From assembly GCF_900111235.1 (NCBI RefSeq), contig NZ_FOJI01000028.1, positions 1-21,942 of the forward strand: a DNA stretch of 21,942 bases, in the 5' to 3' direction. Below the pieces are notes generated by a model. That model was not told the DNA's origin, did no database searches, and saw only the letters and a program-made list of their open reading frames with translations. Both the position numbers and the translations under genes were made by a program. Below are positions 3,125 to 19,601 of the stretch, one piece after another; the first letter of the stretch is position 1, and each line of letters begins with the position of its first letter. This DNA comes from [Clostridium] fimetarium (GTDB lineage Bacteria > Bacillota > Clostridia > Lachnospirales > Lachnospiraceae).

Positions 3125-4258
3125 ATGGAAATAGAAGATAATGTGGAAGCTAGCGTTAAAGACAAGGAAGAAAAACGTATTTTGAAAAGTTTAGCAGAGC
3201 CTCTTTTGGCCTGGTATGATGCGAATGCTAGAATTTTGCCATGGAGAGAAAATGCTGCGCCCTACCGTGTTTGGATGTCAGAAGTGATGTTGCAACAAAC
3301 TAGGGTAGAGGCTGTAAAGTCATATTTTGAAAGATTTATGAAGGCATTGCCAACAATTCAAGCATTGGCAGAAATAGATGATGACGCTCTTCTAAAACTG
3401 TGGGAAGGTCTGGGCTATTATAGTAGGGCTAGAAATGTAAAAAAGACGGCAAAGATAGTAGTTGAGCAATATGGTGGAGAATTTCCATCCAATTATGATG
3501 ATCTAATGGAACTTCCTGGGATCGGTAGTTATACAGCAGGGGCTATTTCTTCTATCGCATTTGCAAATCCAGTGCCGGCAGTAGATGGCAATGTATTAAG
3601 AGTGATTTCCAGAGTTTTGGCTAGTAAAGAAGATATTACAAGTCAATCCGTAAAAAAGAAAGTTGAAGATGAATTACGTGCAACTATGCCACAACTCAAA
3701 CCAGGAGCGTTTAATCAAGCACTAATGGAGATAGGGGCAACGGTATGCGTACCGAATGGAATGGCAAAATGTGAGATTTGTCCCTTGAATCAATTGTGTA
3801 AAGCGAATATACTAGGTATTGTAATGGACTTGCCGAAAAAGACACCAAAGAAACCTAGAACGATTGAGGAGAAAACAATATTAGTAATCAAGTCAGGAGA
3901 TAAGGTCGCAATTAGGAAAAGGTGTAGCAAAGGAATTTTAGCTGGATTATATGAATTTCCAAATATGGAAGGCTATCTATCAGAAAAAGAAGTATTATAT
4001 TTGGTTAAACAAATGTCACTATCCGCAATTAGGATTCTGAAATTAGAGGATTCTAAGCATATCTTTACGCATAAAGAATGGCACATGATTGGATATGTGG
4101 TTAAGGTGGAGGAGTTAGAACAAAACAATAGTATATTAAAAGATTGTTTTTTTGTAGAACCAGCAGAAATAGAAGAAAGATACCCGATTCCTACGGCATT
4201 TCAACGTTATACAAAGTACATCAATATAATACTAGGAAATGATAAGTTTAAGGATTAA
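3125..4258 (+). CDS. mutY: A/G-specific adenine DNA glycosylase MutY (HhH-GPD + 4Fe-4S cluster loop + NUDIX-like C-terminal domain)
   Basis: LLAWYDANARILPWRENAAPYRVWMSEVMLQQTRVEAV..LWEGLGYYSRARN is the classic MutY N-terminus. The Fe-S cysteines are CVPNGMAKCEICPLNQLC. Start ATG 3125 with SD AAAAGGTG; the ORF track's 3065 is upstream and in frame. Confidence 0.9.
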   Translation: MEIEDNVEASVKDKEEKRILKSLAEPLLAWYDANARILPWRENAAPYRVWMSEVMLQQTRVEAVKSYFERFMKALPTIQALAEIDDDALLKLWEGLGYYSRARNVKKTAKIVVEQYGGEFPSNYDDLMELPGIGSYTAGAISSIAFANPVPAVDGNVLRVISRVLASKEDITSQSVKKKVEDELRATMPQLKPGAFNQALMEIGATVCVPNGMAKCEICPLNQLCKANILGIVMDLPKKTPKKPRTIEEKTILVIKSGDKVAIRKRCSKGILAGLYEFPNMEGYLSEKEVLYLVKQMSLSAIRILKLEDSKHIFTHKEWHMIGYVVKVEELEQNNSILKDCFFVEPAEIEERYPIPTAFQRYTKYINIILGNDKFKD

Positions 4259-4410
4259 GATAGTTTAAGGATTAAGATAGTTTAAGGATTAGGATAGTTT
4301 AAGGATTAGGATAGTTTAAGGATTAGGATAGTTTAAGGATTAGGATAGTTTAAGGATTAGGAAAATTTAGAGATTAGGAAATTTTAGGATTAGGAAAATT
4401 AGGATTGGGA
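4241..4410. repeat. tandem repeat array, ~10 copies of a 17-bp unit GATAGTTTAAGGATTA(A/G), degenerating at the 3' end
   Basis: Directly visible. The first unit overlaps the last codons and stop of mutY. The last units decay to GAAAATTTAGAGATTAG / GAAAATTAGGATT. Units are contiguous, so this is not a CRISPR array. Confidence 0.9.
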
Positions 4411-7305: not shown

Positions 7306-7334
7306 TTGACAACTTAACGAATGTTAAGTAAAAT
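7306..7334 (+). promoter_or_regulatory. sigma-A-type promoter TTGACA-N17-TAAAAT for the TetR gene, with a small palindrome TTAACgaatGTTAA in the spacer (candidate autoregulatory operator)
   Basis: TTGACA at 7306-7311, TAAAAT at 7329-7334, spacer exactly 17 nt. The inverted repeat TTAAC/GTTAA lies inside the spacer. Confidence 0.5.
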
Positions 7335-7422
7335 AATAACAAGCGTTAAATAAATCTCTAAGACCTATATATGAGCATAAATGTATATTTCAATATTAGG
7401 AAGCAAGAAAGGATCACTCAAT

Positions 7423-8049
7423 ATGTTAAAAGAAAAAAAAGATACAAAGCAGATCATTTTAGATACTGCGCTTGAATTATTCTCAAAGCGAGGTTACAGT
7501 GGTGTATCCATTCGAGATATATCTGGGAAAATTGGTATCAAGGAAAGCGCAATATACTATCATTTCAAAAATAAGCAGGATATTTTCGATGTTTTATGTC
7601 AGTCATTTAATAATGTAATGTATGCAATACCCTCGCAATTTAGCGCTAAGATGGCAAACGTTAAGAACGTTGAAATAGAAGCATTTTCGATGGTATGCCA
7701 TGGATATTTTACAAATTATTTAATGGAAGATACGGTTAATAGATTCCTTAGAATGCTGATTTTAGAGCAGGGAATTAGTGAAGTTGCAGAGATGATGTAT
7801 CACAATATTATGTTTGATGAAGCGATTGGCAATCAGATACTTATATTTAGTTGGTTGATACAAGTGGGATTTTTAAAAACCAATAATGTGGAACGAATGG
7901 TAATGGATTATCACACAATGGTAGTTTATCTTTTTCATAGATATTTGATATGCGGGGAAATAACAGAACAAGTTAAGCAGATTATAAATGAGGAATTATC
8001 GAAACATATCGAGCATTTTTTACAAAAATATGGAGCAGACCAGAAGTAA
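7423..8049 (+). CDS. TetR/AcrR family transcriptional regulator
   Basis: The N-terminal HTH (ILDTALELFSKRGYSGVSIRDISGKIGIKESAIYYHFKNKQDIF) is the canonical TetR_N domain. Start ATG 7423 with SD AAAGGA; the ORF track's 7381 is upstream and in frame. Confidence 0.85.
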   Translation: MLKEKKDTKQIILDTALELFSKRGYSGVSIRDISGKIGIKESAIYYHFKNKQDIFDVLCQSFNNVMYAIPSQFSAKMANVKNVEIEAFSMVCHGYFTNYLMEDTVNRFLRMLILEQGISEVAEMMYHNIMFDEAIGNQILIFSWLIQVGFLKTNNVERMVMDYHTMVVYLFHRYLICGEITEQVKQIINEELSKHIEHFLQKYGADQK

Positions 8050-8054
8050 AAATA

Positions 8055-8232
8055 AGAAATGAATCAAGAATAATCAAGAATAAGTCAGGGATGAGCAAGA
8101 ATAGCGAAGAATAGAACAAGAATAGCGAAGAATAGAACAAGAATAGCGAAGAATAGAGCAAGAATAGAGCAAGAATACAGAAGGATAGAGTAAGAATAGA
8201 GCAGGAGTAAATGAGGAGTAAATGAGGAGGAA
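8055..8232. repeat. AG-rich intergenic tandem repeat, ~10-11-bp unit AAGAATAG(C/A)G, partly organised as a 21-bp unit
   Basis: caagaatagcgaagaatagaa occurs three times and then degenerates (caagaatagag, taagaatagag). It ends with gagtaaatgag twice, directly before the ABC ATPase SD. Confidence 0.85.
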
Positions 8233-8238
8233 ATAAAG

Positions 8239-9282
8239 ATGGAGAATATAATTAGTACGGTGGGTTTAACAAAAACATATAAGGGAACAACAGTTGTAAA
8301 AGATGTTAATATAAACGTAAAAAAAGGTGAGATTTACGGATTTATAGGAAAGAATGGAGCAGGAAAGACTACGACAATTAGAATGCTACTGAACTTAATT
8401 AAACCGTCTAGCGGAAGCGTGGAATTGTTTGGAGAAACAGTAACGGATAGCAATATTCACGATAATCTAAGAAAAATAGGCGCGATTATTGAGACCCCTG
8501 GATTCTATATGAATCTTTCGGCAAGGCAAAACCTAGACATTCACCGACTTATGATGAATGTCTCAGACAAAACGAGTATAGACAGAGTGCTTGATATCGT
8601 TGGATTATCAGAGGAAGGCAGCAAAAAGGTTCGCAACTATTCACTTGGAATGAGACAAAGACTTGGGATTGCAAGAGCTCTTTTGCATACACCAGAAATA
8701 TTGCTGTTAGATGAACCCACGAATGGCCTTGATCCACAGGGAGTAGTAGAAATACGTGAATTGTTATTAAACATAGCAAAAAGCGGAACTACGATTCTTG
8801 TATCCTCACATATTTTAGCGGAAGTTGAAAAAATAGTAAGCACAATCGGTATTCTTAATAATGGGATATTGCTGGAACAAATAAGCAAGGAAGATTTCCA
8901 AAATAAATGTAAACATACAACGATCTACAAGGTAAATGATGTCGCTAAGGCGGAAACACTTATTAAGCAGTACATAGAAAATATAGGTATCAATCATAGT
9001 AACAGCAACAATCATAGTAACAGCAACAATCAGCGTGACAGTAACAATAATAGTAATAATGGAATTAATCGTAACGATAGTTATGGCATAACGATATCAC
9101 AAGATACAATATCACTTGTCGGTCAATTATCGAGTCAGTCACTCAATGGAAAATTAAACAAAATATTGGTCGAAAATGGGATTGAGGTTCTCGAAAGTAA
9201 AATTGTATGTTCTTCGTTAGAGGATTATTTTATAGAGCTTACAGGGACCGCAAAAATAAATGAATGCGGGGGAACTCGCTGA
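8239..9282 (+). CDS. ABC transporter ATP-binding protein, lantibiotic-protection (MutF/SpaF/BcrA-like) subfamily, with N/S-rich low-complexity insert and DUF4162-like C-terminal domain
   Basis: Walker A GKNGAGKTTT, signature LSLGMRQRLGIARAL, Walker B ILLLDEPTNGLD. SD GAGGAGG. C-terminal NHSNSNNHSNSNNQRDSNNNSNN is encoded by an 18-bp tandem repeat. Confidence 0.9.
   Translation: MENIISTVGLTKTYKGTTVVKDVNINVKKGEIYGFIGKNGAGKTTTIRMLLNLIKPSSGSVELFGETVTDSNIHDNLRKIGAIIETPGFYMNLSARQNLDIHRLMMNVSDKTSIDRVLDIVGLSEEGSKKVRNYSLGMRQRLGIARALLHTPEILLLDEPTNGLDPQGVVEIRELLLNIAKSGTTILVSSHILAEVEKIVSTIGILNNGILLEQISKEDFQNKCKHTTIYKVNDVAKAETLIKQYIENIGINHSNSNNHSNSNNQRDSNNNSNNGINRNDSYGITISQDTISLVGQLSSQSLNGKLNKILVENGIEVLESKIVCSSLEDYFIELTGTAKINECGGTR
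8991..9062 (+). repeat. in-frame 18-bp tandem repeat (4 units) inside the ABC ATPase gene, encoding (NHSNSN)n
   Basis: caatcatagtaacagcaa twice, then caatcagcgtgacagtaa and caataatagtaataatgg. Confidence 0.8.
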
Positions 9283-9995
9283 TGAGAAATTTAATCGGTT
9301 TAGAATTAAAAAAGATAAAGAATACATTTGTAAATGGATTGGTCTTGATATCAATTCTAGCGCCAATATTAATGATAGTGCTGGTATATGCAGTCAGTAG
9401 TGACAAGACATTTTTAGAAGTGGTAATAAGCAATAGCGTGTATATTCAAATGATACCTTTTGCAGTGACAGTAATTTATGGGTGCTTCATAGTTACAAGA
9501 GAGTATAAAGAAAATATGATCGTATATCTGGAAATAACGCCGCAATCCCAGACCAAGATAATGCTATCAAAATTAATCGTGACGGTGCTTGAATTATGTT
9601 TGACGCAGGTAATTACATTTGTTTTACTATTTATAATAAATGCAGTGATTGACGGCTTTGATTTTGCGCTATTGATGAAATACGTAAAGGTAAGTTTGAT
9701 CAGCGCGGGCGCTCTTAGTGCGCTTGTACCATTGATTGTATTTATAAGTTTGGTGCGACGAAGCTTTTCGAGTGCATCAATTATTTTTTTGATGATATTT
9801 ATGTTTACATTTCCCTTTATATTTTCGGAAAATGGATATGTGTTTCCACACTTGCTACCTATGATTTTAGTGGCAAAGTTCTTCGGGAATTTAAGATATG
9901 ATAAGATAAGCTTTTTGTGTGGGGCGTTGGTGTTGACCTTGGTCGCAATGTTATTTTTATATTTGTCCATTCGAAAGACAAATAAGAAATATTAA
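9282..9995 (+). CDS. ABC-2 type permease (lantibiotic-immunity MutE/EpiE/MutG-like), 6 predicted TM
   Basis: Its ATG overlaps the ATPase TGA (TGATG), indicating translational coupling, with GGGGGA upstream. The ORF track's 9264 start lies inside the ATPase gene. The protein is hydrophobic and multi-TM with an N-terminus MRNLIGLELKKIKN typical of the family. Confidence 0.8.
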   Translation: MRNLIGLELKKIKNTFVNGLVLISILAPILMIVLVYAVSSDKTFLEVVISNSVYIQMIPFAVTVIYGCFIVTREYKENMIVYLEITPQSQTKIMLSKLIVTVLELCLTQVITFVLLFIINAVIDGFDFALLMKYVKVSLISAGALSALVPLIVFISLVRRSFSSASIIFLMIFMFTFPFIFSENGYVFPHLLPMILVAKFFGNLRYDKISFLCGALVLTLVAMLFLYLSIRKTNKKY

Positions 9996-10027
9996 TGATA
10001 TCTTTAGAAGAACTGGAGTGGTATAAT

Positions 10028-10747
10028 ATGGAAAGATATTTAAAAGCGGAAATTATAAAATTACACTCTTTAAGCATTTGGTGGCTAATCATAGCTGGGG
10101 CAATATTGCCAGGAACGATAGCTTACCTGACACTTTTTAATCAAGATAATGTATCGTGGCTTTCGTTTACTCATATGTGTTTGCTTACATTTAATATACA
10201 GTCACTACTTACTTTTTCAGCATTTGCATCCTATATATGGGCGAGAGAATATGAAGAAAACACAATGGAAGTGGTTTTGTGCTATCCATATCCAAGGTTT
10301 GTTATGATCTTTATGAAATTAGTGATACTGTTTTTTGTCATTCTAATTACGGGAGTGATGTTTTTTGTGGCAACTTTGATTGCTGGAAGAATGCTATTTG
10401 ATTCAATGATTCCAATGGAAATAATTGGAAAATTAGTGGTTGCTTTATTAAATACTGGGATGATGCATTTTTTATTGGTACCAATGTATTTGTGTATTGC
10501 TGTAATAACTAAAACATCTATATCGGGGCTTGTTTTTGGAATCGTAAATATGTGTATATGCATGGCGCTAGGTACCACAGGTTTTGTTCAATATATTCCG
10601 CAGTGTATTCCGTATGTGATGGGGGATAATCTTTTGGGCGTAAAGTCAATGACGGTTGATAATGATTTGGCTGTGTATTATACTTTGTTAATAGGCATAT
10701 TTATATTATTTACATTAATATCAAAAAAATTAGAACGCAAATTTTAG
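10028..10747 (+). CDS. second ABC-2 type permease of the same FEG-type transporter
   Basis: Preferred start is ATG 10028 (MERYLKAEIIKL...) with SD GGAG 9 nt upstream. Alternative ATG 9995 overlaps the preceding stop (TAATG). Multi-TM hydrophobic protein. Confidence 0.8.
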   Translation: MERYLKAEIIKLHSLSIWWLIIAGAILPGTIAYLTLFNQDNVSWLSFTHMCLLTFNIQSLLTFSAFASYIWAREYEENTMEVVLCYPYPRFVMIFMKLVILFFVILITGVMFFVATLIAGRMLFDSMIPMEIIGKLVVALLNTGMMHFLLVPMYLCIAVITKTSISGLVFGIVNMCICMALGTTGFVQYIPQCIPYVMGDNLLGVKSMTVDNDLAVYYTLLIGIFILFTLISKKLERKF

Positions 10748-10795
10748 GTTGAAGCATATATATAATACAGTAGGAAAAAATTAAGTGAGGGTAAT

Positions 10796-11902
10796 ATGGC
10801 AGAAAATTTCAATTTGGAAAGTTATTTGAGTAATGGAGTGGAAAATATAGTGAAAGGTGCCATAAAGGCTTCATTATCCAATCCGAAAGAGAGTATATTT
10901 ATTGCTAAGTATGCGATGTCAAGTAAGAATTCAAGAAAGCTACGCGTGGAAGCAGAAAACAGAGGTGAACATATACCTCCATTTTTAATTGCAAGTATAA
11001 CAAGTCAGTGTAATCTTCATTGCAAAGGCTGTTATGCACGAGGCAATAAAGCCTGTGTTGATAGGGAAGCCCAGAATCAGTTAACAGATCAAGAATGGCT
11101 AAGAATATTTGAAGAGGCTAAGGAGATTGGTATTGGATTCATACTTCTAGCGGGTGGAGAGCCATTTATGAGGCCGGACATTATTCGGGAAGCTGGTAAG
11201 ATACCTGAAATAATATTCCCGATCTTTACGAATGGAACAATGATTGATGATGGTTACATAAAATTATTTATAAAGCATAGAAATCTGATACCTATTTTGA
11301 GTATTGAAGGTAATGAGGAATATACAGATGCACGACGTGGTAATGGAGTTTATCAGAAGTTGATTGATGCAATGGATATAATGAAAAAGAATAAAATACT
11401 ATATGGTACCTCCGTTACAGTAACGAAGCAAAATCTAGATGAAGTAACGACTGTTGAATTTCTTGATGAGTTGTATAGCAGAGGATGTAAGGTGGTATTT
11501 TTAATTGAGTATGTCCCAATCAGTATGGATACACAGTATATGGCATTTGAAAATGAAGAGAGAGAAATATTAAAAGAAAAACTTGTGGGGTTAAGAGATA
11601 CATATGAAGATATGATCTTCATATCGTTTCCGGGAGACGAAAAGACATCGGGTGGATGCCTTGCAGCAGGGCGCGGATTCTTCCATATCAATTCCCATGG
11701 TGGCGCAGAACCATGTCCATTCTCGCCTTATTCTGATACAAACTTGAAAAATGTCTCATTGAAGGAGGCAATCAATTCTCCACTATTTAAGAATTTACGC
11801 GATAATAATTTGTTGATGGAAGAGCATGCAGGGGGCTGTGTTCTATTTGAGAGACAAGAACAAGTAAAGCAATTAATAGTGGAGACAAGGTCTGAAGTCT
11901 AA
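10796..11902 (+). CDS. radical SAM enzyme with partial SPASM / twitch-like C-terminal auxiliary-cluster motif
   Basis: CNLHCKGCYA places the CX3CX2C cysteines at residues 72/76/79. GGEPF is the SAM-binding glycine-rich motif. The C-terminal GGCLAAGRGFFHINSHGGAEPC matches the first half of SPASM (C-X9-15-G-X4-C), but the CX2CX5CX3C block is absent; a single further Cys lies in GGCVLFE. SD GTGAGGG. Confidence 0.85.
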   Translation: MAENFNLESYLSNGVENIVKGAIKASLSNPKESIFIAKYAMSSKNSRKLRVEAENRGEHIPPFLIASITSQCNLHCKGCYARGNKACVDREAQNQLTDQEWLRIFEEAKEIGIGFILLAGGEPFMRPDIIREAGKIPEIIFPIFTNGTMIDDGYIKLFIKHRNLIPILSIEGNEEYTDARRGNGVYQKLIDAMDIMKKNKILYGTSVTVTKQNLDEVTTVEFLDELYSRGCKVVFLIEYVPISMDTQYMAFENEEREILKEKLVGLRDTYEDMIFISFPGDEKTSGGCLAAGRGFFHINSHGGAEPCPFSPYSDTNLKNVSLKEAINSPLFKNLRDNNLLMEEHAGGCVLFERQEQVKQLIVETRSEV

Positions 11903-11974
11903 CAGTAATTATTATTTGTGCCTGTGGTACAAATTTTGATATGCACAGAAAAATAGGCGGTAACGGGGGGAATT

Positions 11975-12691
11975 ATGATAAAAATCGGGTTATGCGATGA
12001 TGAGACAAAATTTAGAGAAAGAGAAATAGAAATTCTTACAAAAGTACTCAACGATGGTTTCGAGTATTTAACATATGAGTTATGCGAATTTGAAACAGGA
12101 GAACAGCTTCTGTCTTATTATACGAAGGATGATATCGATATTATTTTGCTCGATATAGAAATGGGAAATGAACATGGGTTTGATGTGGCTTCAAAGCTTA
12201 TGAATATTAGAAAAGATACTAGAATTATATTTGTAACAAGTCATGAAAATCTGGTGTTTGATTCATTTGTATGTAGGCCACTTGGTTTTGTAAGAAAACG
12301 AATATTCGAACAAGAAATCCAGCTGGTTATGAGCCGTATTATAAAAAGCCTTATTGATGATAAAAAAATGATTGTGTTAGGGGAAGGAAAGGATAATATT
12401 CAACTTCTATTTAATGAGATACGAATGATAGACTCATTTAAGCATAATATAATTGTAAGCATTGAAAATAATGATATTACTTTGAGAGATAGATTATCAA
12501 GATTTGAAGATCGTCTGATTGAGGAGAATTTCGTCAAAGTTAACAAAGGCTGTTTAGTTAATATGAAATACATAAAAAAAATTGAAAACTTTGTTTTAGT
12601 CCTTATAAATGGACGACATGTGGTTATAAGCAGAAGTAAAGGAAAAGAAGTAAATAGTATTTATAAAAATTACATATGCAAAAGGGGATAA
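11975..12691 (+). CDS. LytTR/AlgR family response regulator (REC + LytTR DNA-binding domain)
   Basis: REC domain with the phospho-acceptor Asp in IILLDIEM. C-terminal LytTR domain FVKVNKGCLVNMKYIKKIEN...VVISRSKGKEV. SD GGGGGGAA. Confidence 0.9.
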   Translation: MIKIGLCDDETKFREREIEILTKVLNDGFEYLTYELCEFETGEQLLSYYTKDDIDIILLDIEMGNEHGFDVASKLMNIRKDTRIIFVTSHENLVFDSFVCRPLGFVRKRIFEQEIQLVMSRIIKSLIDDKKMIVLGEGKDNIQLLFNEIRMIDSFKHNIIVSIENNDITLRDRLSRFEDRLIEENFVKVNKGCLVNMKYIKKIENFVLVLINGRHVVISRSKGKEVNSIYKNYICKRG

Positions 12692-12697
12692 TGTGTA

Positions 12698-13975
12698 ATG
12701 ACAATCTTAAATATGTCAGTATTCATTTTTATGAACAACATACTGCAGGGGATATTTTGGATGTTGTGTGTTAATTCAATACTACAGGAAAAACATCATA
12801 TCTTAGCGAGAAATATATCTAAAGTGGTGTTAATTAGTATCGGAATAATAGGCTTCAATATTATAAATAACAAGCAGCATTTAATTGAAATTTCGGATAT
12901 TACTTTGATTATGTTTCTGACATTTTTAGTTTGTCTAATTCTTTATTATAATCAATTTCTTCTAAAGAGAATGCTGTATTGTATGGGAGCATTATCCTTA
13001 GTAGCAGCGCTGTTAACCGTCTATATGAAAAGTGAAATGATATTAGCTAGTTCGTTAGTGCTTTCGGTGTGGATTTTAACGAGCATTTATGCGCTAGGCC
13101 TGTTTGCTCAGAATATGAAGGCGCGGTTTAGCTGGAATATAGAGTACTCAGAATTTAGCATAATAATTGTAATCGTTGTCTGTTTAATATATTCGTTGAT
13201 TAAGGCTGTTGGGCACAATCAAAATAAAATAGATGAAAAATGGAATGATATGCAACTTTGTGTATGCGCGGTACTTTTGATCAATGTTGTATTTTATTAT
13301 ATTGCCGGAAGTATATATGAATTATTTGAGAAAAAAATCGAAATTAAACTAATGGAATTATCATATGAGAATAGTGAATTCAGTGCGGATAAGATAATGC
13401 ATATGCATGAAGAAGCAAGCAAAATGCGCCATGACATGAAGAACTGTATGGCGATAGTAGATAAATATATTGAACATGGAGATTATGTGGAAGCAAGAAG
13501 ATATATTTATACGCTAATGGAAGAAAAAATAGATGTTCTTGGAATTAAGATGTATTGTTCAAATAAAGTGCTAAATTACATAATTAATAATAAATTCGCA
13601 GTTTGTGAAAAAGAAAACATAGAAACAAAATGTATTATAAGTGCTAATCTTAAGTGTATATCTGATATTGATTTAAGTATATTAATTGGGAATCTTCTTG
13701 ATAATGCAATTGAATCATCTCAAAAGACCGACTGTGGGATGATTAATATTGAGATATATGAAGAAGAAAATATTACCTTAGTGATAGAGAATACGATTAA
13801 AGAAAGTGTGATACAAAACAATCAAATATTTGCTACAACCAAGCAACATAAATCGAAACATGGATTTGGGATGATAAGTATTAAAGATATTGTGAAAAAA
13901 TATAGAGGGACCATAGAATATAGCGAAGAGGGTAATGTTATGACTTGTCTAGTAATCTTGAAAAAAACATTTTGA
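12698..13975 (+). CDS. AgrC/ComD-like (HPK10 subfamily) sensor histidine kinase, polytopic N-terminal sensor + GHKL ATPase
   Basis: About 200 aa with 6-7 TM helices. H-box SKMRHDMKN, N-box LLDNAIESS, G-box GFGM. The start is 6 nt after the response-regulator stop, with SD AAAGGGGA. Confidence 0.85.
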   Translation: MTILNMSVFIFMNNILQGIFWMLCVNSILQEKHHILARNISKVVLISIGIIGFNIINNKQHLIEISDITLIMFLTFLVCLILYYNQFLLKRMLYCMGALSLVAALLTVYMKSEMILASSLVLSVWILTSIYALGLFAQNMKARFSWNIEYSEFSIIIVIVVCLIYSLIKAVGHNQNKIDEKWNDMQLCVCAVLLINVVFYYIAGSIYELFEKKIEIKLMELSYENSEFSADKIMHMHEEASKMRHDMKNCMAIVDKYIEHGDYVEARRYIYTLMEEKIDVLGIKMYCSNKVLNYIINNKFAVCEKENIETKCIISANLKCISDIDLSILIGNLLDNAIESSQKTDCGMINIEIYEEENITLVIENTIKESVIQNNQIFATTKQHKSKHGFGMISIKDIVKKYRGTIEYSEEGNVMTCLVILKKTF

Positions 13976-14014
13976 TTCTCATTCATTCTCATTCATTTTA
14001 GCATAAGAAAATAA

Positions 14015-14081
14015 CCGTTTGTGCCAAAAACATACAGTTTGTGCCAAGTATATATTAATTCCTTCGAAAAACATTTATAAT
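14015..14081 (+). promoter_or_regulatory. LytTR-type direct repeats (2x C(C/A)GTTTGTGCCAA, 20 bp start-to-start) plus a -10 TATAAT about 28 bp downstream; candidate response-regulator-dependent promoter of the C39-like peptidase gene
   Basis: Repeat 1 at 14015-14027 and repeat 2 at 14035-14047 are identical in 12/13 positions. The ACAGTTTGTG core resembles the AgrA/ComE-type 9-bp repeats with ~12-bp spacer. TATAAT lies at 14076-14081. Confidence 0.5.
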
Positions 14082-14184
14082 TATATAAATATTCGTTTAT
14101 TATTTATTTTTCTATTTGTGTCGCAAATGTACATGCTGATTTGTTATTACTTACAGAGAGATTAATAACTTGGGGGAACAAGAT

Positions 14185-15291
14185 ATGAAAAAAGGGAAGA
14201 TTGGCACAATCGCAGTAGGGGCGGTTGTTGTATGCATTACGGTTTCTTTGCTTTTGCAAAATGAAGTAGAGGGGAACTTATATGATATTAAGGCAAAGAC
14301 TTCTACTACGAAAGTAGAAGTGAGTTATGGTGCAGAGGCAGTGTCATATAATATTATGCGGGATAAGATGCTTTACATGGTATTGGTAAATAAGGATATT
14401 AGGGATACATATGTTAAGAATGTTATTCCACAAGTAGGAATACAAGTAGATACACAAGAATTAAAAGCAATAAGTAAAATTGCTGGTATTTTAGGTAATA
14501 ATGATAAAGAAACAACCTACAAGATAGTTACGACTAAGAGTGATATAGATGGTAAGATGTACCTAGCAGAGACAGCAACTAGTATTAATAAAAGTGTTGT
14601 GTCAGCCAGACGTATTGAACTGCCAGTTTCATATCTAAGTCAATACCCTGAATTGCCAACGGGCTGCGAGATTACATCTTTGACAACTGTTTTGAATTAT
14701 TTAAAATATAAGGTGTCAAAAGAGAATATGGCAGATAAATATTTACCAAAGTGTGATTTAGAGTCACGAGATTTTTTGAATTATTTTTTAGGTGATCCAT
14801 ACACGGATGGTGCATATGGTTGTTATTCAGCGCCTATTATAAAAGCGGCTAATTCTTATCTAAAGCAGCAAGGAAATCAATATACTGCTTACGATTACAG
14901 CGGAAGCGGATTTGGTACATTTTTAAAAGAAATAGAAGCGGGAAACCCTGTAATAATATGGTCAACGATGGATTTAGAATGCGCTTACGTATCAGCTGAG
15001 TGGACAATCAATGGTAGCGATGTGGCGTGGATTTCACCGGAACACTGTGTTGTAATGATTGGATATAATCTGGATGCCAATACAGTAACATTATCAGATC
15101 CAATGCAAGGTATTGTTACAGTTGATATGGATCTAGTGAATCTACGATATACACAAATGTGCAGTCAAGCAGTGGTTATAAAAGCTTATAGTAAAGCTGA
15201 TAACAATGCAACGAAAGCTACGGAGGCAATGACAAAAGCAACGACAAAAGCAACGACGCCAACGCAGGTGCCAACGAAAAAGACGAAGTAA
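14185..15291 (+). CDS. membrane-anchored/secreted C39-like (Peptidase_C39_2, YvpB-like) cysteine peptidase with T/K/A-rich C-terminal tail
   Basis: N-terminal signal-anchor KIGTIAVGAVVVCITVSLLL. Catalytic Cys in YPELPTGCEITSLTTVLNYL and His in WISPEHCVVMIGYN. Start ATG 14185 with SD GGGGGAA; the ORF track's 14170 is a TTG. Confidence 0.8.
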   Translation: MKKGKIGTIAVGAVVVCITVSLLLQNEVEGNLYDIKAKTSTTKVEVSYGAEAVSYNIMRDKMLYMVLVNKDIRDTYVKNVIPQVGIQVDTQELKAISKIAGILGNNDKETTYKIVTTKSDIDGKMYLAETATSINKSVVSARRIELPVSYLSQYPELPTGCEITSLTTVLNYLKYKVSKENMADKYLPKCDLESRDFLNYFLGDPYTDGAYGCYSAPIIKAANSYLKQQGNQYTAYDYSGSGFGTFLKEIEAGNPVIIWSTMDLECAYVSAEWTINGSDVAWISPEHCVVMIGYNLDANTVTLSDPMQGIVTVDMDLVNLRYTQMCSQAVVIKAYSKADNNATKATEAMTKATTKATTPTQVPTKKTK

Positions 15292-15513
15292 GGGACGCGC
15301 TACGGCCCATATAAAGGGGACGCGCCACACCCCATATAAAAGGGGACGCACCACACCCCATATAAAAGGCACGTTCATCGGTTAACGGACGGTAGGCTCA
15401 AATGTTATGCTTTCTAGCTGACACGTAAAAAGATACGTGTCGCTAGCCAGCACAACATTTGAGCCTACCGTTCGTTAAACGATGTACTTAGCCTTTTATA
15501 TGGGGTGTGGCGC
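15292..15513. repeat. GC-rich palindromic repeat element: 3 tandem copies of a ~26-bp unit (GGACGCGCCACACCCCATATAAAAGG), a ~48-bp-arm imperfect hairpin, and an inverted copy of the unit at the far end (MITE-like or structured RNA)
   Basis: The element starts immediately after the peptidase stop. Tandem copies lie at 15292-15369. Inner hairpin arms at 15391-15426 and 15435-15469 extend with mismatches to 15379-15481. ccttttatatggggtgtggcgc at 15492-15513 is the exact reverse complement of gcgccacaccccatataaaagg at 15322-15343. GC content is far above the surrounding ~30%. Confidence 0.6.
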
Positions 15514-15705
15514 TGGTTGTTTAGAAGGGCGGTAAAGTGCGGAATAAGCGTAGCGACGGGAGGGCGTTAGAGGCGATATAGGGTTCGATGGAAGGGGGCG
15601 TTAGCATCGAATTAGCGTAATGTCGTTGGAATATTAATACGGAGTCCCCCTTGGTTGTTAGGTGAGAGGTGGAGGCTTGGTAGAGGGTGCTTGGCTTTTT
15701 TTATT
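15514..15705. other. GC-rich non-coding segment with dispersed direct repeats (GGGCGTTAG x2, AGCGTA..CG..GG x2, GGTTGTTTAG/GGTTGTTAGG x2), ending in GCTTGGCTTTTTTT
   Basis: Read directly from the sequence. There is no ORF with a plausible start or SD. The purine-rich, GC-rich composition is atypical for this genome. Confidence 0.4.
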
Positions 15706-18362: not shown

Positions 18363-19601
18363 GTGAAAATAAGATTAATTACATTTATTCAAAAAGAAAT
18401 TGTTCTGTGTATTGCGGTTCTATGTGCGATTATATCCGCGTTTCTAATTCCACCATCGAAAGCGTATATAGATTACATAGACTTTAGAGTACTAGCACTA
18501 CTATTTTGCCTAATGCTCGTAGTTGCAGGATTTCAAACGATAGGTTTGTTTGAAAATATAATTGAGAAAATGATAAAACATATCAGCAATACAAGGCAAC
18601 TTGCATTTGCACTGGTACTGATTTGCTTTTTTACAAGTATGTTTATTACAAATGATGTTGCATTAATCACATTTGTACCATTTGCAATCATGACTTTGCA
18701 GAAGATCAAAAAAGAAAAGTTGATGATATTTGTTATCGTCATGCAGACAATTGCAGCTAATCTGGGTAGCATGTTTACACCACTTGGAAACCCGCAGAAT
18801 CTGTATTTATATTCAATTTCTCAAATGGATATTTTAGGATTTCTAAGGCTTATGTTTCCAGTCACATGTTTATCTTTCGTATTAATTGCAGTGACATTGC
18901 TATTTATGAAAAATGAAAAAATAGGGACATTAGAGAAAATAGGGACATTAGAGGAAATAGGGACATTAGAGGAAATAGGGAAATTAGAGGAAATAGGCAC
19001 ATTAGAAGAAATAGGAATAATAGAGGAAATAGGTGCAGTAGAGGAAAAAGGGACAATAGACGTCAGTAGATCGGTCAACCTTGACCGGGTGCAAATGACG
19101 GCTTTTATAGTATTGTTTGCAATTTGTCTATGTACAGTACTCCATATGATTGATTATAGAATTGCAATCGTTATTGTAGTGATTACAGTACTTATATTTA
19201 ATCGAAAATTACTTGCGAAAGCAGACTATTTACTCTTGCTGACATTTGTGGCATTCTTTATATTTGTGGGAAATATGAAGCATATGACATGTATTGCAAA
19301 TGTACTTGCTAGCGTTGTAAGTGGTAATGAAATTATAGTTTCAACAATAGCAAGCCAAGTAATTAGTAACGTTCCTGCGGCAATACTACTTTCGGGATTC
19401 ACAAAAAATTATTCTATGTTAATACTTGGAACAAATATTGGTGGACTCGGAACGTTGATAGCCTCGATGGCAAGTTTGATTTCATATAAAATTTATGGAA
19501 AAACAGAAGGTGCTCGAAAGGGTAAATATTTGGCAGTGTTTTCTGTGTTCAATCTGATATATCTTTTTATTATTTTGACGGCTTGCATTATAATTGTTTA
19601 A
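18363..19601 (+). CDS. ArsB/NhaD-superfamily (CitMHS/YbiR-like) anion/ion permease with a central (EIGTLE)n repeat loop
   Basis: Polytopic protein. It carries TNDVALITFVPFA and the TPLGNPQNLYLYS motif characteristic of the ArsB/NhaD permease superfamily. The start is uncertain: GTG 18363 has a weak SD. Confidence 0.7.
   Translation: MKIRLITFIQKEIVLCIAVLCAIISAFLIPPSKAYIDYIDFRVLALLFCLMLVVAGFQTIGLFENIIEKMIKHISNTRQLAFALVLICFFTSMFITNDVALITFVPFAIMTLQKIKKEKLMIFVIVMQTIAANLGSMFTPLGNPQNLYLYSISQMDILGFLRLMFPVTCLSFVLIAVTLLFMKNEKIGTLEKIGTLEEIGTLEEIGKLEEIGTLEEIGIIEEIGAVEEKGTIDVSRSVNLDRVQMTAFIVLFAICLCTVLHMIDYRIAIVIVVITVLIFNRKLLAKADYLLLLTFVAFFIFVGNMKHMTCIANVLASVVSGNEIIVSTIASQVISNVPAAILLSGFTKNYSMLILGTNIGGLGTLIASMASLISYKIYGKTEGARKGKYLAVFSVFNLIYLFIILTACIIIV
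18915..19060 (+). repeat. in-frame 18-bp tandem repeat (~8 units, GAAATAGGGACATTAGAG) inside the permease gene, encoding (E/K)(E/K)IGTL repeats
   Basis: Directly visible. The units diverge at the 3' end (ataggcacattagaagaa, ataggaataatagaggaa, ataggtgcagtagaggaa). Confidence 0.9.

What the first reader, a model, noticed from the sequence alone, without database searches (positions are those of the whole stretch)
14015..14081. Near-identical direct repeats with LytTR (AgrA/ComE-like) geometry upstream of the C39-like peptidase gene
CCGTTTGTGCCAA (14015-14027) and CAGTTTGTGCCAA (14035-14047) are 20 bp apart. A TATAAT follows at 14076-14081, about 28 bp downstream, and a ~100-nt leader runs to the ATG at 14185. 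This architecture matches AgrA-dependent P2/P3 and ComE-dependent promoters: 9-bp core repeats, ~12-bp spacer, -35 replaced by the activator site. It implies the adjacent LytTR regulator drives the peptidase gene.
Basis: partly seen in the sequence, partly recalled or inferred. Interest (0 to 1): 0.6.

Follow-up and report, generated by a model that had tools for sequence, protein, structure and literature searches.

The report
LytTR regulator boxes before a peptidase gene
Two conserved 14-bp direct repeats just upstream of a secreted cysteine-peptidase gene in [Clostridium] fimetarium look like the docking site of the neighbouring LytTR-type response regulator, an ordinary but well-supported example of a known promoter design.

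Summary
CCGTTTGTGCCAA (14015-14027) and CAGTTTGTGCCAA (14035-14047) lie 20 bp apart, with TATAAT at 14076-14081 and the ATG at 14185.

The repeat is best described as two 14-bp boxes, AC(C/A)GTTTGTGCCAA. Their first 9 bp (ACCGTTTGT, ACAGTTTGT) both fit the published AgrA/LytTR consensus [TA][AC][CA]GTTN[AG][TG]. It is the only such pair in the window (0.04 expected by chance).

The spacer between the 9-bp cores is 11 bp, not 12. The proximal core ends 10 bp before a -35 position that has no recognisable -35 hexamer.

In four independent orthologous loci (peptidase 51-95% identical) the box block is 82% invariant, against 6% upstream and 39% in the leader. Non-syntenic peptidase paralogs lack the boxes. 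Distant relatives of the regulator (42% and 37% identity) carry related 20-bp-period repeats beside their own two-component genes.

The TetR gene in the cluster has its own palindromic operator elsewhere. No RNA structure or Rfam family explains the region.

Most likely the phosphorylated LytTR regulator (11975-12691) binds both boxes and activates the C39-like peptidase gene. This parallels FsrA-gelE and VirR-ccp.

Caveats: binding is untested, one ortholog keeps the boxes without an adjacent regulator, and no signal peptide gene or autoregulatory site was found. This is a new member of a known kind, of modest interest.

The parts
14014..14027 (+). Distal box 1: ACCGTTTGTGCCAA (9-bp LytTR-consensus core ACCGTTTGT at 14014-14022); about -74 to -61 relative to the predicted start
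   Evidence: Conserved as ACAATTTGTGCCAA (L002), ACAATTTATGCCAA (L010) and ACAGTTTTTGCCAA (L004).
14034..14047 (+). Proximal box 2: ACAGTTTGTGCCAA (core ACAGTTTGT at 14034-14042); about -54 to -41
   Evidence: ACAGTT and TGCCAA are invariant in all orthologs.
14053..14058 (+). Position where a -35 hexamer would lie (TATTAA, 2 of 6 matches to TTGACA): no functional -35, as in activator-dependent promoters
   Evidence: Direct reading. The promoter scan does not pair the TATAAT at 14076 with any acceptable -35.
14076..14081 (+). -10 hexamer TATAAT; predicted transcription start near 14088
   Evidence: The -10 region (14073-14084) is 75% invariant across orthologs and lies 27-28 nt after box 2 in all of them.
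14088..14184 (+). Predicted 5' leader of about 97 nt, with a conserved block at 14111-14150 of unknown role and the ribosome-binding site GGGGGAA
   Evidence: There is no stable or covarying RNA fold and no Rfam match.
14185..15291 (+). Target gene: membrane-anchored or secreted C39-like cysteine peptidase (Peptidase_C39_2)
   Evidence: Pfam 102 bits. PDB 3ERV match at E=4e-19, with GCE(I/V)TS and EHCVV aligned. One N-terminal hydrophobic segment.
11975..12691 (+). Proposed binder: response regulator with receiver and LytTR domains (WP_092458192.1, [Clostridium] fimetarium)
   Evidence: Pfam LytTR 56.9 bits and Response_reg 50.9 bits. Identity of the record.
12698..13975 (+). Cognate AgrC-like histidine kinase (HATPase_c_5; about 7 predicted membrane segments in residues 1-206); its stop codon lies 38 nt before box 1 with no terminator between

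Best explanation
The two 14-bp direct repeats are the tandem binding site of a LytTR-type response regulator, most probably the one encoded two genes upstream (11975-12691). Proposed mechanism, inferred step by step:
1. The polytopic AgrC-like kinase (12698-13975) senses an unidentified extracellular cue, plausibly a peptide.
2. The kinase phosphorylates the regulator.
3. The regulator dimerises and places one LytTR domain on each box. The boxes are 20 bp apart, on nearly the same face of the helix, centred about -68 and -48 from a predicted start near 14088.
4. The bound dimer recruits RNA polymerase to a promoter that has a consensus -10 (TATAAT) but no -35.
5. This switches on the gene for a membrane-anchored or secreted C39-like cysteine peptidase (14185-15291).
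Shown here: the repeats, their fit to the LytTR consensus, their conservation, their position relative to a conserved -10, and the identities of the neighbouring proteins. Inferred: who binds, the direction of regulation (activation), the transcription start, and the signal.
For: (1) Both 9-bp cores fit [TA][AC][CA]GTTN[AG][TG] (consensus from PMC5600425). This is the only such pair in 21.9 kb on both strands, with 0.043 expected.
(2) Geometry matches published LytTR sites. The spacer is 11 bp; LytTR sites mostly have 12 bp, with a minority at 11 or 13, and a bias to lie 10 bp upstream of the -35 (PMC6193735). Here the proximal core ends exactly 10 bp before the -35 position. VirR boxes are longer repeats 7-8 nt apart, immediately upstream of the -35 (PMC2838878).
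(3) The -10 lacks a -35 partner.
(4) Phylogenetic footprint: in window, L002, L010 and L004 (peptidase 51-62% identical between groups) the box block is 31/38 invariant. This compares with 1/17 upstream, 12/22 between boxes and -10, 9/12 at the -10, and 12/31 in the leader.
(5) The boxes occur once per locus, always before the orthologous peptidase gene. They are absent from four non-syntenic peptidase paralog loci, one of them in the same genome.
(6) Remote relatives of the regulator have related 20-bp-period repeats in cis. L006 (42% identity) has two perfect 17-mers, ACAAAATTTGCCAAAAA, ahead of its own operon. L007/L008 (37% identity) have AACCGCTTGCGCA/AACCACTTGTGCA directly after the kinase stop. 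That site is the best 40-mer match in the locus (26/40, z=5.4).
(7) The other regulator in the cluster, TetR, has its own conserved palindromic operator inside a strong promoter at 7306-7334.
(8) No RNA-level explanation holds.
Against: There are no binding, footprint or transcript data.
L004 and L110 keep both boxes, yet the radical SAM gene directly precedes the peptidase gene and no regulator or kinase lies within about 7 kb. So adjacency is not obligatory and another LytTR protein could be the binder. The C. fimetarium genome has at least one more LytTR two-component system (L012).
The period is 20 bp rather than the canonical 21-22 bp.
The regulator's LytTR domain is divergent. It has FVKVNKG where VirR is described as having FxRxHrS (motif name from the reference list in PMC2706048; alignment), and it has no phmmer hit to solved LytTR structures.
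The L007 similarity is modest.
This genome is rich in intergenic tandem repeats, so a duplication origin is plausible, though it does not explain the conservation.
Confidence: 0.75

Rival explanations
1. The boxes are a LytTR-type (or other direct-repeat-binding) activator site, but the protein that binds them is not the adjacent regulator. It would be encoded elsewhere in the genome.
For: L004/L110-type loci retain both boxes, with a concerted G-to-T change in both copies, and have no two-component genes within 7 kb on either side. C. fimetarium carries another LytTR two-component system on a different contig (L012).
Against: In 4 of 5 distinct ortholog types the regulator and kinase genes sit immediately upstream. 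Distant relatives of this regulator family also have related 20-bp-period repeats in cis. A 69%-identical regulator cluster occurs in the same kinds of sources (ENA and JGI) as the L004-type peptidase, so those organisms may simply encode the regulator elsewhere (untested).
Confidence: 0.12
2. The repeat is a neutral tandem duplication (replication slippage) of a 20-bp unit with no function, like the many other intergenic tandem arrays in this contig.
For: The window holds several intergenic tandem arrays: 4245-4395, 8065-8203, 13975-13997 and 15292-15373. The 10-nt array right next to the boxes changes copy number between the window and L003.
Against: Both copies are kept in register in loci whose peptidases are only 51-62% identical, while the flanking sequence is unalignable (6% invariant). 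The neighbouring true tandem array is absent from L002, L004 and L010. The cores match a specific protein-binding consensus, and the site sits at a fixed distance from a conserved -10.
Confidence: 0.04
3. The regulator binds the boxes but acts as a repressor or roadblock, for instance limiting read-through from the kinase gene, rather than as an activator of a promoter of its own.
For: No terminator lies between the kinase stop (13975) and the boxes, so read-through transcription is possible. AgrA is reported to repress bsaA from a site downstream of that promoter (PMC4227749).
Against: The boxes lie upstream of a conserved -10 that lacks a -35, which is the classic activator arrangement (PMC5600425, PMC6193735, PMC2838878). 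In L004 the upstream gene is different, yet the box and -10 module is unchanged.
Confidence: 0.06
4. The repeats act at the RNA level, as part of a structured 3' end of the kinase mRNA or a long-range pairing with the inverted copy at 14201-14213 that masks the start of the peptidase ORF.
For: An inverted 12-nt copy (92% complementary) lies 14 nt into the ORF.
Against: The inverted copy is lost through a synonymous change in the 98% relative and is absent in L002, L004 and L010. RNA folds of 13970-14085 and 14086-14200 are no more stable than shuffles (z=0.95 and 0.09). There is no Rfam family and no terminator-like site.
Confidence: 0.02

Closest known systems
Enterococcus faecalis FsrA boxes at the gelE promoter (fsrABDC followed by gelE-sprE)
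   Same: A LytTR response regulator binds LytTR sites upstream of a secreted-protease gene (PMC5454873). The protease genes follow the kinase gene fsrC on the chromosome (my own recollection, not checked here). The output is an extracellular protease.
   Different: Fsr is a full Agr-type quorum-sensing system with FsrB and FsrD and an autoregulated fsrB promoter. Here no AgrB/AgrD-like genes and no second box pair were found. The protease here is a C39-like cysteine peptidase, not a metalloprotease or serine protease.
Clostridium perfringens VirR boxes (pfoA, ccp, vrr, virT, virU)
   Same: Two imperfect direct repeats longer than 9 bp lie 7-8 nt apart within a core region immediately upstream of the -35, and both are needed (PMC2838878). 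The box begins CCCAGTT (primer in PMC2706048), compared with ACAGTT here. One direct target, ccp, encodes a cysteine protease (alpha-clostripain; PMC4877802). The host is clostridial.
   Different: The 3' half of the box differs (TGCCAA here, against ..TTCAC in VirR box 1). The regulator is only distantly related and lacks the FxRxHrS motif (FVKVNKG). The VirSR signal comes from a separate agr locus.
Staphylococcus aureus AgrA sites at P2/P3 and Streptococcus pneumoniae ComE boxes
   Same: The 9-bp direct repeats fit [TA][AC][CA]GTTN[AG][TG] and lie upstream of a sub-optimal promoter (PMC5600425, PMC4227749). ComE uses two 9-bp repeats with a 12-mer linker (PMC4005675). The LytTR domains bind in tandem.
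   Different: The spacers are 12-13 bp (period 21-22), against 11 bp (period 20) here. Agr and Com promoters drive the regulator's own operon and the signal gene (positive feedback), which is not seen here.
LytTR Regulatory System (HdrRM/BrsRM-type) operon promoters
   Same: Direct repeats have 11-13 bp spacers and a strong bias to lie 10 bp upstream of the -35 (PMC6193735). Here the values are exactly 11 bp and 10 bp.
   Different: Those regulators lack a receiver domain and are controlled by a membrane inhibitor protein. Here the regulator is a classical two-component response regulator, and the site is not in front of its own operon.

Membership tests
LytTR-regulator direct-repeat promoter (AgrA/ComE/VirR/FsrA type) | Two direct repeats, each matching the 9-bp LytTR consensus [TA][AC][CA]GTTN[AG][TG] | tested here: met
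   ACCGTTTGT and ACAGTTTGT both match. This is the only such pair in the window, with 0.043 expected. Consensus taken from PMC5600425.
LytTR-regulator direct-repeat promoter (AgrA/ComE/VirR/FsrA type) | Repeats separated by about 12 bp (published range 11-13 bp for 9-bp cores; 7-8 nt for the longer VirR boxes) | tested here: met
   The spacer is 11 bp (20-bp period) in the window and in L002, L004, L010 and L006. This falls in the minority 11-bp class of PMC6193735 and is 1 bp shorter than AgrA or ComE.
LytTR-regulator direct-repeat promoter (AgrA/ComE/VirR/FsrA type) | Site lies just upstream of the -35 position of a promoter with a weak or absent -35, oriented towards the gene | tested here: met
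   The proximal core ends 10 bp before the -35 position. TATTAA matches only 2 of 6 -35 bases. TATAAT is conserved at a fixed 27-28 nt from box 2. The start site is predicted, not mapped.
LytTR-regulator direct-repeat promoter (AgrA/ComE/VirR/FsrA type) | A LytTR-domain regulator is available (usually encoded nearby) | tested here: met
   Pfam LytTR 56.9 bits (cut-off 22.6) plus a receiver domain at 11975-12691. The regulator is adjacent in window, L001, L003, L002, L010 and L114, but not in L004 or L110.
LytTR-regulator direct-repeat promoter (AgrA/ComE/VirR/FsrA type) | Evolutionary conservation of both boxes relative to their flanks | tested here: met
   31/38 invariant in the box block, against 1/17 upstream and 12/31 in the leader, across four distinct orthologs.
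LytTR-regulator direct-repeat promoter (AgrA/ComE/VirR/FsrA type) | Specific binding of the regulator to the boxes and box-dependent transcription | not testable with these tools
   This needs gel shifts or footprinting, reporter fusions and start-site mapping.
Agr/Com/Fsr-type peptide quorum-sensing circuit | Autoinducer precursor gene plus a processing or export gene (AgrB/AgrD, ComC/ComAB, FsrB/FsrD) in the locus | tested here: not met
   All large ORFs of the window were scanned against Pfam and NCBIfam. None is AgrB-like or a C39-ABC exporter, and no plausible precursor ORF lies next to the two-component genes. L004 does carry a C39-ABC exporter and an AprE/HlyD-like gene, but no two-component system.
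Agr/Com/Fsr-type peptide quorum-sensing circuit | Positive feedback: the same boxes in front of the regulator/kinase (or signal) operon | tested here: not met
   A position-weight-matrix scan of the window, L002, L004 and L010 finds one box pair per locus, only before the peptidase gene. The cluster's upstream promoter (7306-7334) carries a TetR-type palindrome instead. The remote relative L006 does have its repeats ahead of its own operon.

The most novel reading that the evidence does not exclude
The locus may be an undescribed peptide-responsive circuit of Lachnospiraceae. It comprises TetR, a lantibiotic-immunity-like ABC transporter, a radical SAM/SPASM enzyme, an AgrC-like kinase with a LytTR regulator, and the box-controlled secreted C39-like peptidase. 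In this reading the induced extracellular peptidase would be the effector that matures or destroys a (possibly radical-SAM-modified) signalling or antimicrobial peptide. The regulator subfamily, with its divergent FVKVNKG motif, would read an extended 14-bp box (ACAGTTnnTGCCAA) at a 20-bp period. A more speculative add-on: the conserved leader micro-ORF (M-x-x-LICYY, ATG at 14127) transcribed from this promoter might be a tiny peptide product.
Probability: 0.12. Interest if true: 0.6.

Novelty: new member of a known kind. Interest (0 to 1): 0.3.

Why it matters
The site gives a concrete, testable operator-promoter pair for an uncharacterised LytTR two-component system in a Lachnospiraceae-type anaerobe. 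It also assigns a regulatory input to a member of the poorly understood Peptidase_C39_2 (YvpB-like) family. The 14-bp box and 20-bp period refine the motif that should be used to search complete genomes for the regulon. Conceptually it repeats a known theme, in which LytTR regulators switch on secreted proteases (FsrA-gelE, VirR-ccp), so it extends that theme rather than changing current understanding.

Tried and rejected
1. Regulon search. I scanned 596 Gb of species-representative genomes for TGCCAA-N5-7-ACAGTT-NN-TGCCAA. It gave 92 hits in unrelated taxa, about the chance level (my estimate is roughly 50 for uniform base composition). None had a homolog of the regulator, kinase or peptidase nearby. 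Spot checks in Pseudobutyrivibrio and Dyadobacter found no LytTR gene beside the hit. The source genome itself was not returned, so the C. fimetarium regulon could not be defined. The result does show that the motif is not a dispersed repeat family.
2. Metagenome scan with a stricter pattern. Only two true loci came back, both repeating types already in hand (L110 matches L004; L114 matches the window). The rest were chance hits.
3. Third copies. The inverted copy at 14201-14213 and the weak direct copy at 14115-14133 were rejected as box members. The first is not conserved. The second is part of a separate conserved leader block at the wrong spacing.
4. Sigma-54 promoter on the minus strand. 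TTGGCAC is the reverse complement of GTGCCAA, but no TTGC follows at the required spacing (reading).
5. TetR as the binder. Rejected because TetR's own perfect palindrome lies at 7312-7329 and is conserved in L002.
6. RNA element or terminator. Rejected.
7. A half-site-like TTTGTGCC in the hairpin at 11914-11934 before the regulator gene. It has no partner 20 bp away and is absent in L002, so it is not an autoregulatory site.
8. Locating the regulator of L004-type organisms. This failed because contig look-ups were exhausted. The 69%-identity regulator cluster sits on 12-52 kb contigs that I could not fetch.
9. Primary VirR-box papers (PMC415773) are not held in the library, so the VirR geometry is cited from secondary sources.

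Full report
SOURCE AND CONTEXT
The window is a whole 21,942-bp contig of [Clostridium] fimetarium. The regulator protein is WP_092458192.1, recorded on a contig of exactly that length. A second contig from the same sequencing run carries a protein that NCBI names for that species.

The genes around the finding all lie on the + strand:
- TetR regulator, 7381-8049.
- ABC ATPase, 8239-9282. Its best NCBIfam hit is "lantibiotic protection ABC transporter" (233 bits, below the cut-off).
- Two ABC-2 permeases, 9264-10747. One is weakly MutE/EpiE-like.
- Radical SAM/SPASM enzyme, 10796-11902.
- Response regulator with receiver and LytTR domains, 11975-12691.
- GHKL kinase of the AgrC type, 12698-13975. 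It has about 7 hydrophobic segments in its first 206 residues.
- The intergenic region in question.
- Peptidase_C39_2 gene, 14185-15291.
- A 700-bp repeat-rich spacer and then an SPFH-domain gene.

The peptidase has one N-terminal hydrophobic segment. It aligns to the putative C39-like peptidase 3ERV, including the GCE(I/V)TS and EHCVV motifs. It is therefore probably an active extracytoplasmic cysteine peptidase.

THE OBSERVATION
The repeated unit is longer than 13 nt: 14014-14033 and 14034-14053 are 80% identical. The conserved part is a 14-mer, AC(C/A)GTTTGTGCCAA.

The window contains many unrelated tandem arrays, so "a close direct repeat" alone is weak evidence. However, this is the only place in the window, on either strand, where two matches to the LytTR consensus [TA][AC][CA]GTTN[AG][TG] lie 11-13 bp apart. 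Dinucleotide shuffles give 0.043 such pairs per window (consensus from PMC5600425).

GEOMETRY
With 9-bp cores (14014-14022 and 14034-14042) the spacer is 11 bp. The proximal core ends 10 bp before the position where a -35 hexamer would lie (14053-14058, TATTAA), taking a 17-bp spacer from TATAAT at 14076-14081. The consensus promoter scan finds no -35 partner for this -10.

Published LytTR sites compare as follows:
- AgrA repeats are 12-13 bp apart, upstream of the -35 (PMC5600425).
- ComE has 9-bp repeats with a 12-mer linker (PMC4005675).
- LytTR regulatory systems mostly have 12-bp spacers, with a minority at 11 or 13. They are strongly biased to lie 10 bp upstream of the -35 (PMC6193735).
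- VirR boxes are longer repeats 7-8 nt apart, immediately upstream of the -35 (PMC2838878).

The site therefore fits the family. Its 20-bp period and 14-bp unit are closest to the VirR format.

COMPARATIVE EVIDENCE
Loci were retrieved through proteins, not through the motif, so the test is unbiased.
- Boxes conserved: L003 (regulator 98% identical) has identical boxes. L002 and L010 (regulator about 83%, peptidase 51-52%) have ACAATTT(G/A)TGCCAA and ACAGTTCGTGCCAA. L004 (peptidase 62%) has ACAGTTTTTGCCAA twice. The period is 20 bp in every case, and a -10 (TATAAT or TATTAT) follows 27-28 nt after box 2.
- Footprint: across the four distinct types the box block is 31/38 invariant. This compares with 1/17 for the sequence just upstream, 12/22 between boxes and -10, 9/12 at the -10, and 12/31 in the leader.
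- Boxes absent from paralogs: four peptidase paralog loci that are not syntenic lack the boxes and have ordinary promoters (L011, L012 from the same genome, L105, L106).
- One pair per locus: a weight-matrix scan finds exactly one box pair per orthologous locus.

REMOTE RELATIVES OF THE REGULATOR
- L006 (42% identical regulator) has two perfect 17-mers, ACAAAATTTGCCAAAAA, 20 bp apart. They lie ahead of the operon that contains its own regulator and kinase.
- L007/L008 (37% identical) have AACCGCTTGCGCA and AACCACTTGTGCA, 20 bp apart, directly after the kinase stop and before an unrelated 284-aa gene. This is the best match to the window's 40-mer anywhere in that locus (26/40, z=5.4), although the margin over background maxima (22-24) is modest.

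So the repeat type travels with the regulator family while the target gene changes. That is what a regulator-operator pair predicts.

THE MAIN COUNTER-OBSERVATION
In L004 and L110 the radical SAM gene is followed directly by the boxes and the peptidase gene. No TetR, ABC or two-component genes lie within about 7 kb on either side. The boxes are intact there, with the same G-to-T change in both copies, so something still selects for them. The regulator must then be encoded elsewhere, or be a different protein. A 69%-identical regulator cluster exists in ENA and JGI samples on long contigs, but I could not fetch them.

ALTERNATIVES TESTED
- TetR as binder: the TetR gene has its own strong promoter, TTGACA-17-TAAAAT at 7306-7334. 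A perfect palindrome, ACTTAAC-GAAT-GTTAAGT, fills the spacer and is identical in L002. TetR is accounted for.
- RNA element: RNA folds of the repeat region and of the leader are no better than shuffles. There is no Rfam match and no terminator.
- Inverted copy: the copy at 14201-14213 is lost through a synonymous change in the 98% relative.
- Sigma-54: the minus-strand TTGGCAC does not form a sigma-54 promoter.
- Dispersed repeat: the motif is not a dispersed repeat family. Across 596 Gb of genomes the two-box pattern occurs at about chance frequency in unrelated contexts. A stricter pattern in metagenomes returns only the orthologous promoter.

MECHANISM
The most likely mechanism (confidence about 0.75) has five steps:
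1. The kinase senses an unknown external cue.
2. It phosphorylates the regulator.
3. The regulator's two LytTR domains bind the boxes in tandem, at about -74 to -41.
4. RNA polymerase is recruited to the -35-less promoter.
5. The secreted C39-like peptidase is produced.

Only the sequence features are shown. Binding, activation, the start site and the signal are inferred.

There is no evidence for an Agr/Com-type autoinduction loop. No AgrB/AgrD-like or ComC/ComAB-like genes are in the window, and no boxes lie upstream of the regulator's own operon. The system works like FsrA-gelE or VirR-ccp, but it should not be filed as a quorum-sensing locus.

VERDICT
This is a real, conserved cis-element and very probably a LytTR response-regulator operator. 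It is a new member of a known kind, of modest interest (0.3). The more novel possibility is an undescribed peptide-responsive circuit with the C39-like peptidase as effector. It is not excluded, but nothing found here supports it directly.

Noticed in passing
window 7306-7334 (and L002 1881-1909): Strong promoter TTGACA-17-TAAAAT ahead of the TetR gene. Its 17-bp spacer is filled by a perfect palindrome, ACTTAAC-GAAT-GTTAAGT, identical in the 83% relative. It is very probably the TetR autoregulatory operator for the TetR-ABC(-rSAM)-regulator-kinase cluster.
   Followed up: partly
window 14111-14150: A leader block (TATTTGTGTCGCAAATGTACATGCTGATTTGTTATTAC) is conserved in L003, L004 and L010 but deleted in L002. 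It shows no significant or covarying RNA fold. It contains a micro-ORF without a Shine-Dalgarno sequence: MYMLICYYLQRD in the window, MHELICYYL in L004 and MYKLICYY in L010, with three synonymous Leu codons. Its role is unknown.
   Followed up: partly
window 15292-15534: The repeat-rich spacer after the peptidase gene holds three 25-26-nt units (GGGACGCGCCACACCCCATATAAAAG) and an inverted repeat with 55-nt arms (15364-15418 / 15442-15496), plus an inverted copy of the unit at 15491-15513. It could be a MITE/REP-like element or a large terminator structure. There is no Rfam match.
   Followed up: partly
window 8065-8203, 4245-4395, 18919-19060, 13975-13997: Several tandem arrays: 11/21-nt units (about 13 copies) between the TetR and ABC genes, a 17-mer x 9, an 18-mer x 8 that lies inside the CitMHS-family ORF, and a 10-mer x 2.3 right after the kinase stop. 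The last changes copy number between the window and L003.
   Followed up: no
window 7381-13975 compared with L002, L004, L010: The locus is mosaic among relatives. L002 and L010 lack the radical SAM gene and carry a second C39_2 peptidase gene. L004 and L110 lack the TetR, ABC and two-component genes, and L004 carries a C39-ABC exporter and an AprE/HlyD-like gene upstream of the S8 (Csp-like) protease. The flanking genes (S8, SPFH, CitMHS, GNAT, Amt) are syntenic.
   Followed up: partly
L006 206-242; L007 4108-4140 (same in L008): Remote relatives of the regulator (42% and 37% identity) have their own 20-bp-period direct repeats. In L006, ACAAAATTTGCCAAAAA x 2 lies ahead of a DUF2712-containing operon that includes the regulator and kinase. 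In L007, AACCGCTTGCGCA/AACCACTTGTGCA lies after the kinase gene, ahead of unknown membrane-protein genes.
   Followed up: partly
L020 about 1215-1290 and L054 (Dyadobacter spp.): Three tandem 20-bp units, CGACAG(A/T)T(A/T)CGTGCCAATACT, share the ACAGTTnnTGCCAA half-site and the 20-bp period. They lie next to a Toprim/primase-like gene, with no LytTR gene among the three neighbouring ORFs scanned against Pfam. This may be an unrelated iteron-like site or a LytTR site in Bacteroidota.
   Followed up: partly
window 11914-11934: A hairpin, ATTTGTGCC-TGT-GGTACAAAT, followed by TTTT lies between the radical SAM gene and the regulator gene. It is terminator-like and contains a single box-like TTTGTGCC with no partner. 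It is absent in L002, which lacks the radical SAM gene.
   Followed up: partly
window 11975-12691 (alignment A3): This regulator subfamily has FVKVN(K/R)GC where VirR-type LytTR domains are described as having FxRxHrS. It gives no phmmer hit to solved LytTR structures. The family is rare, with 15 clusters at E<=1e-10 in 5.8 billion proteins.
   Followed up: partly
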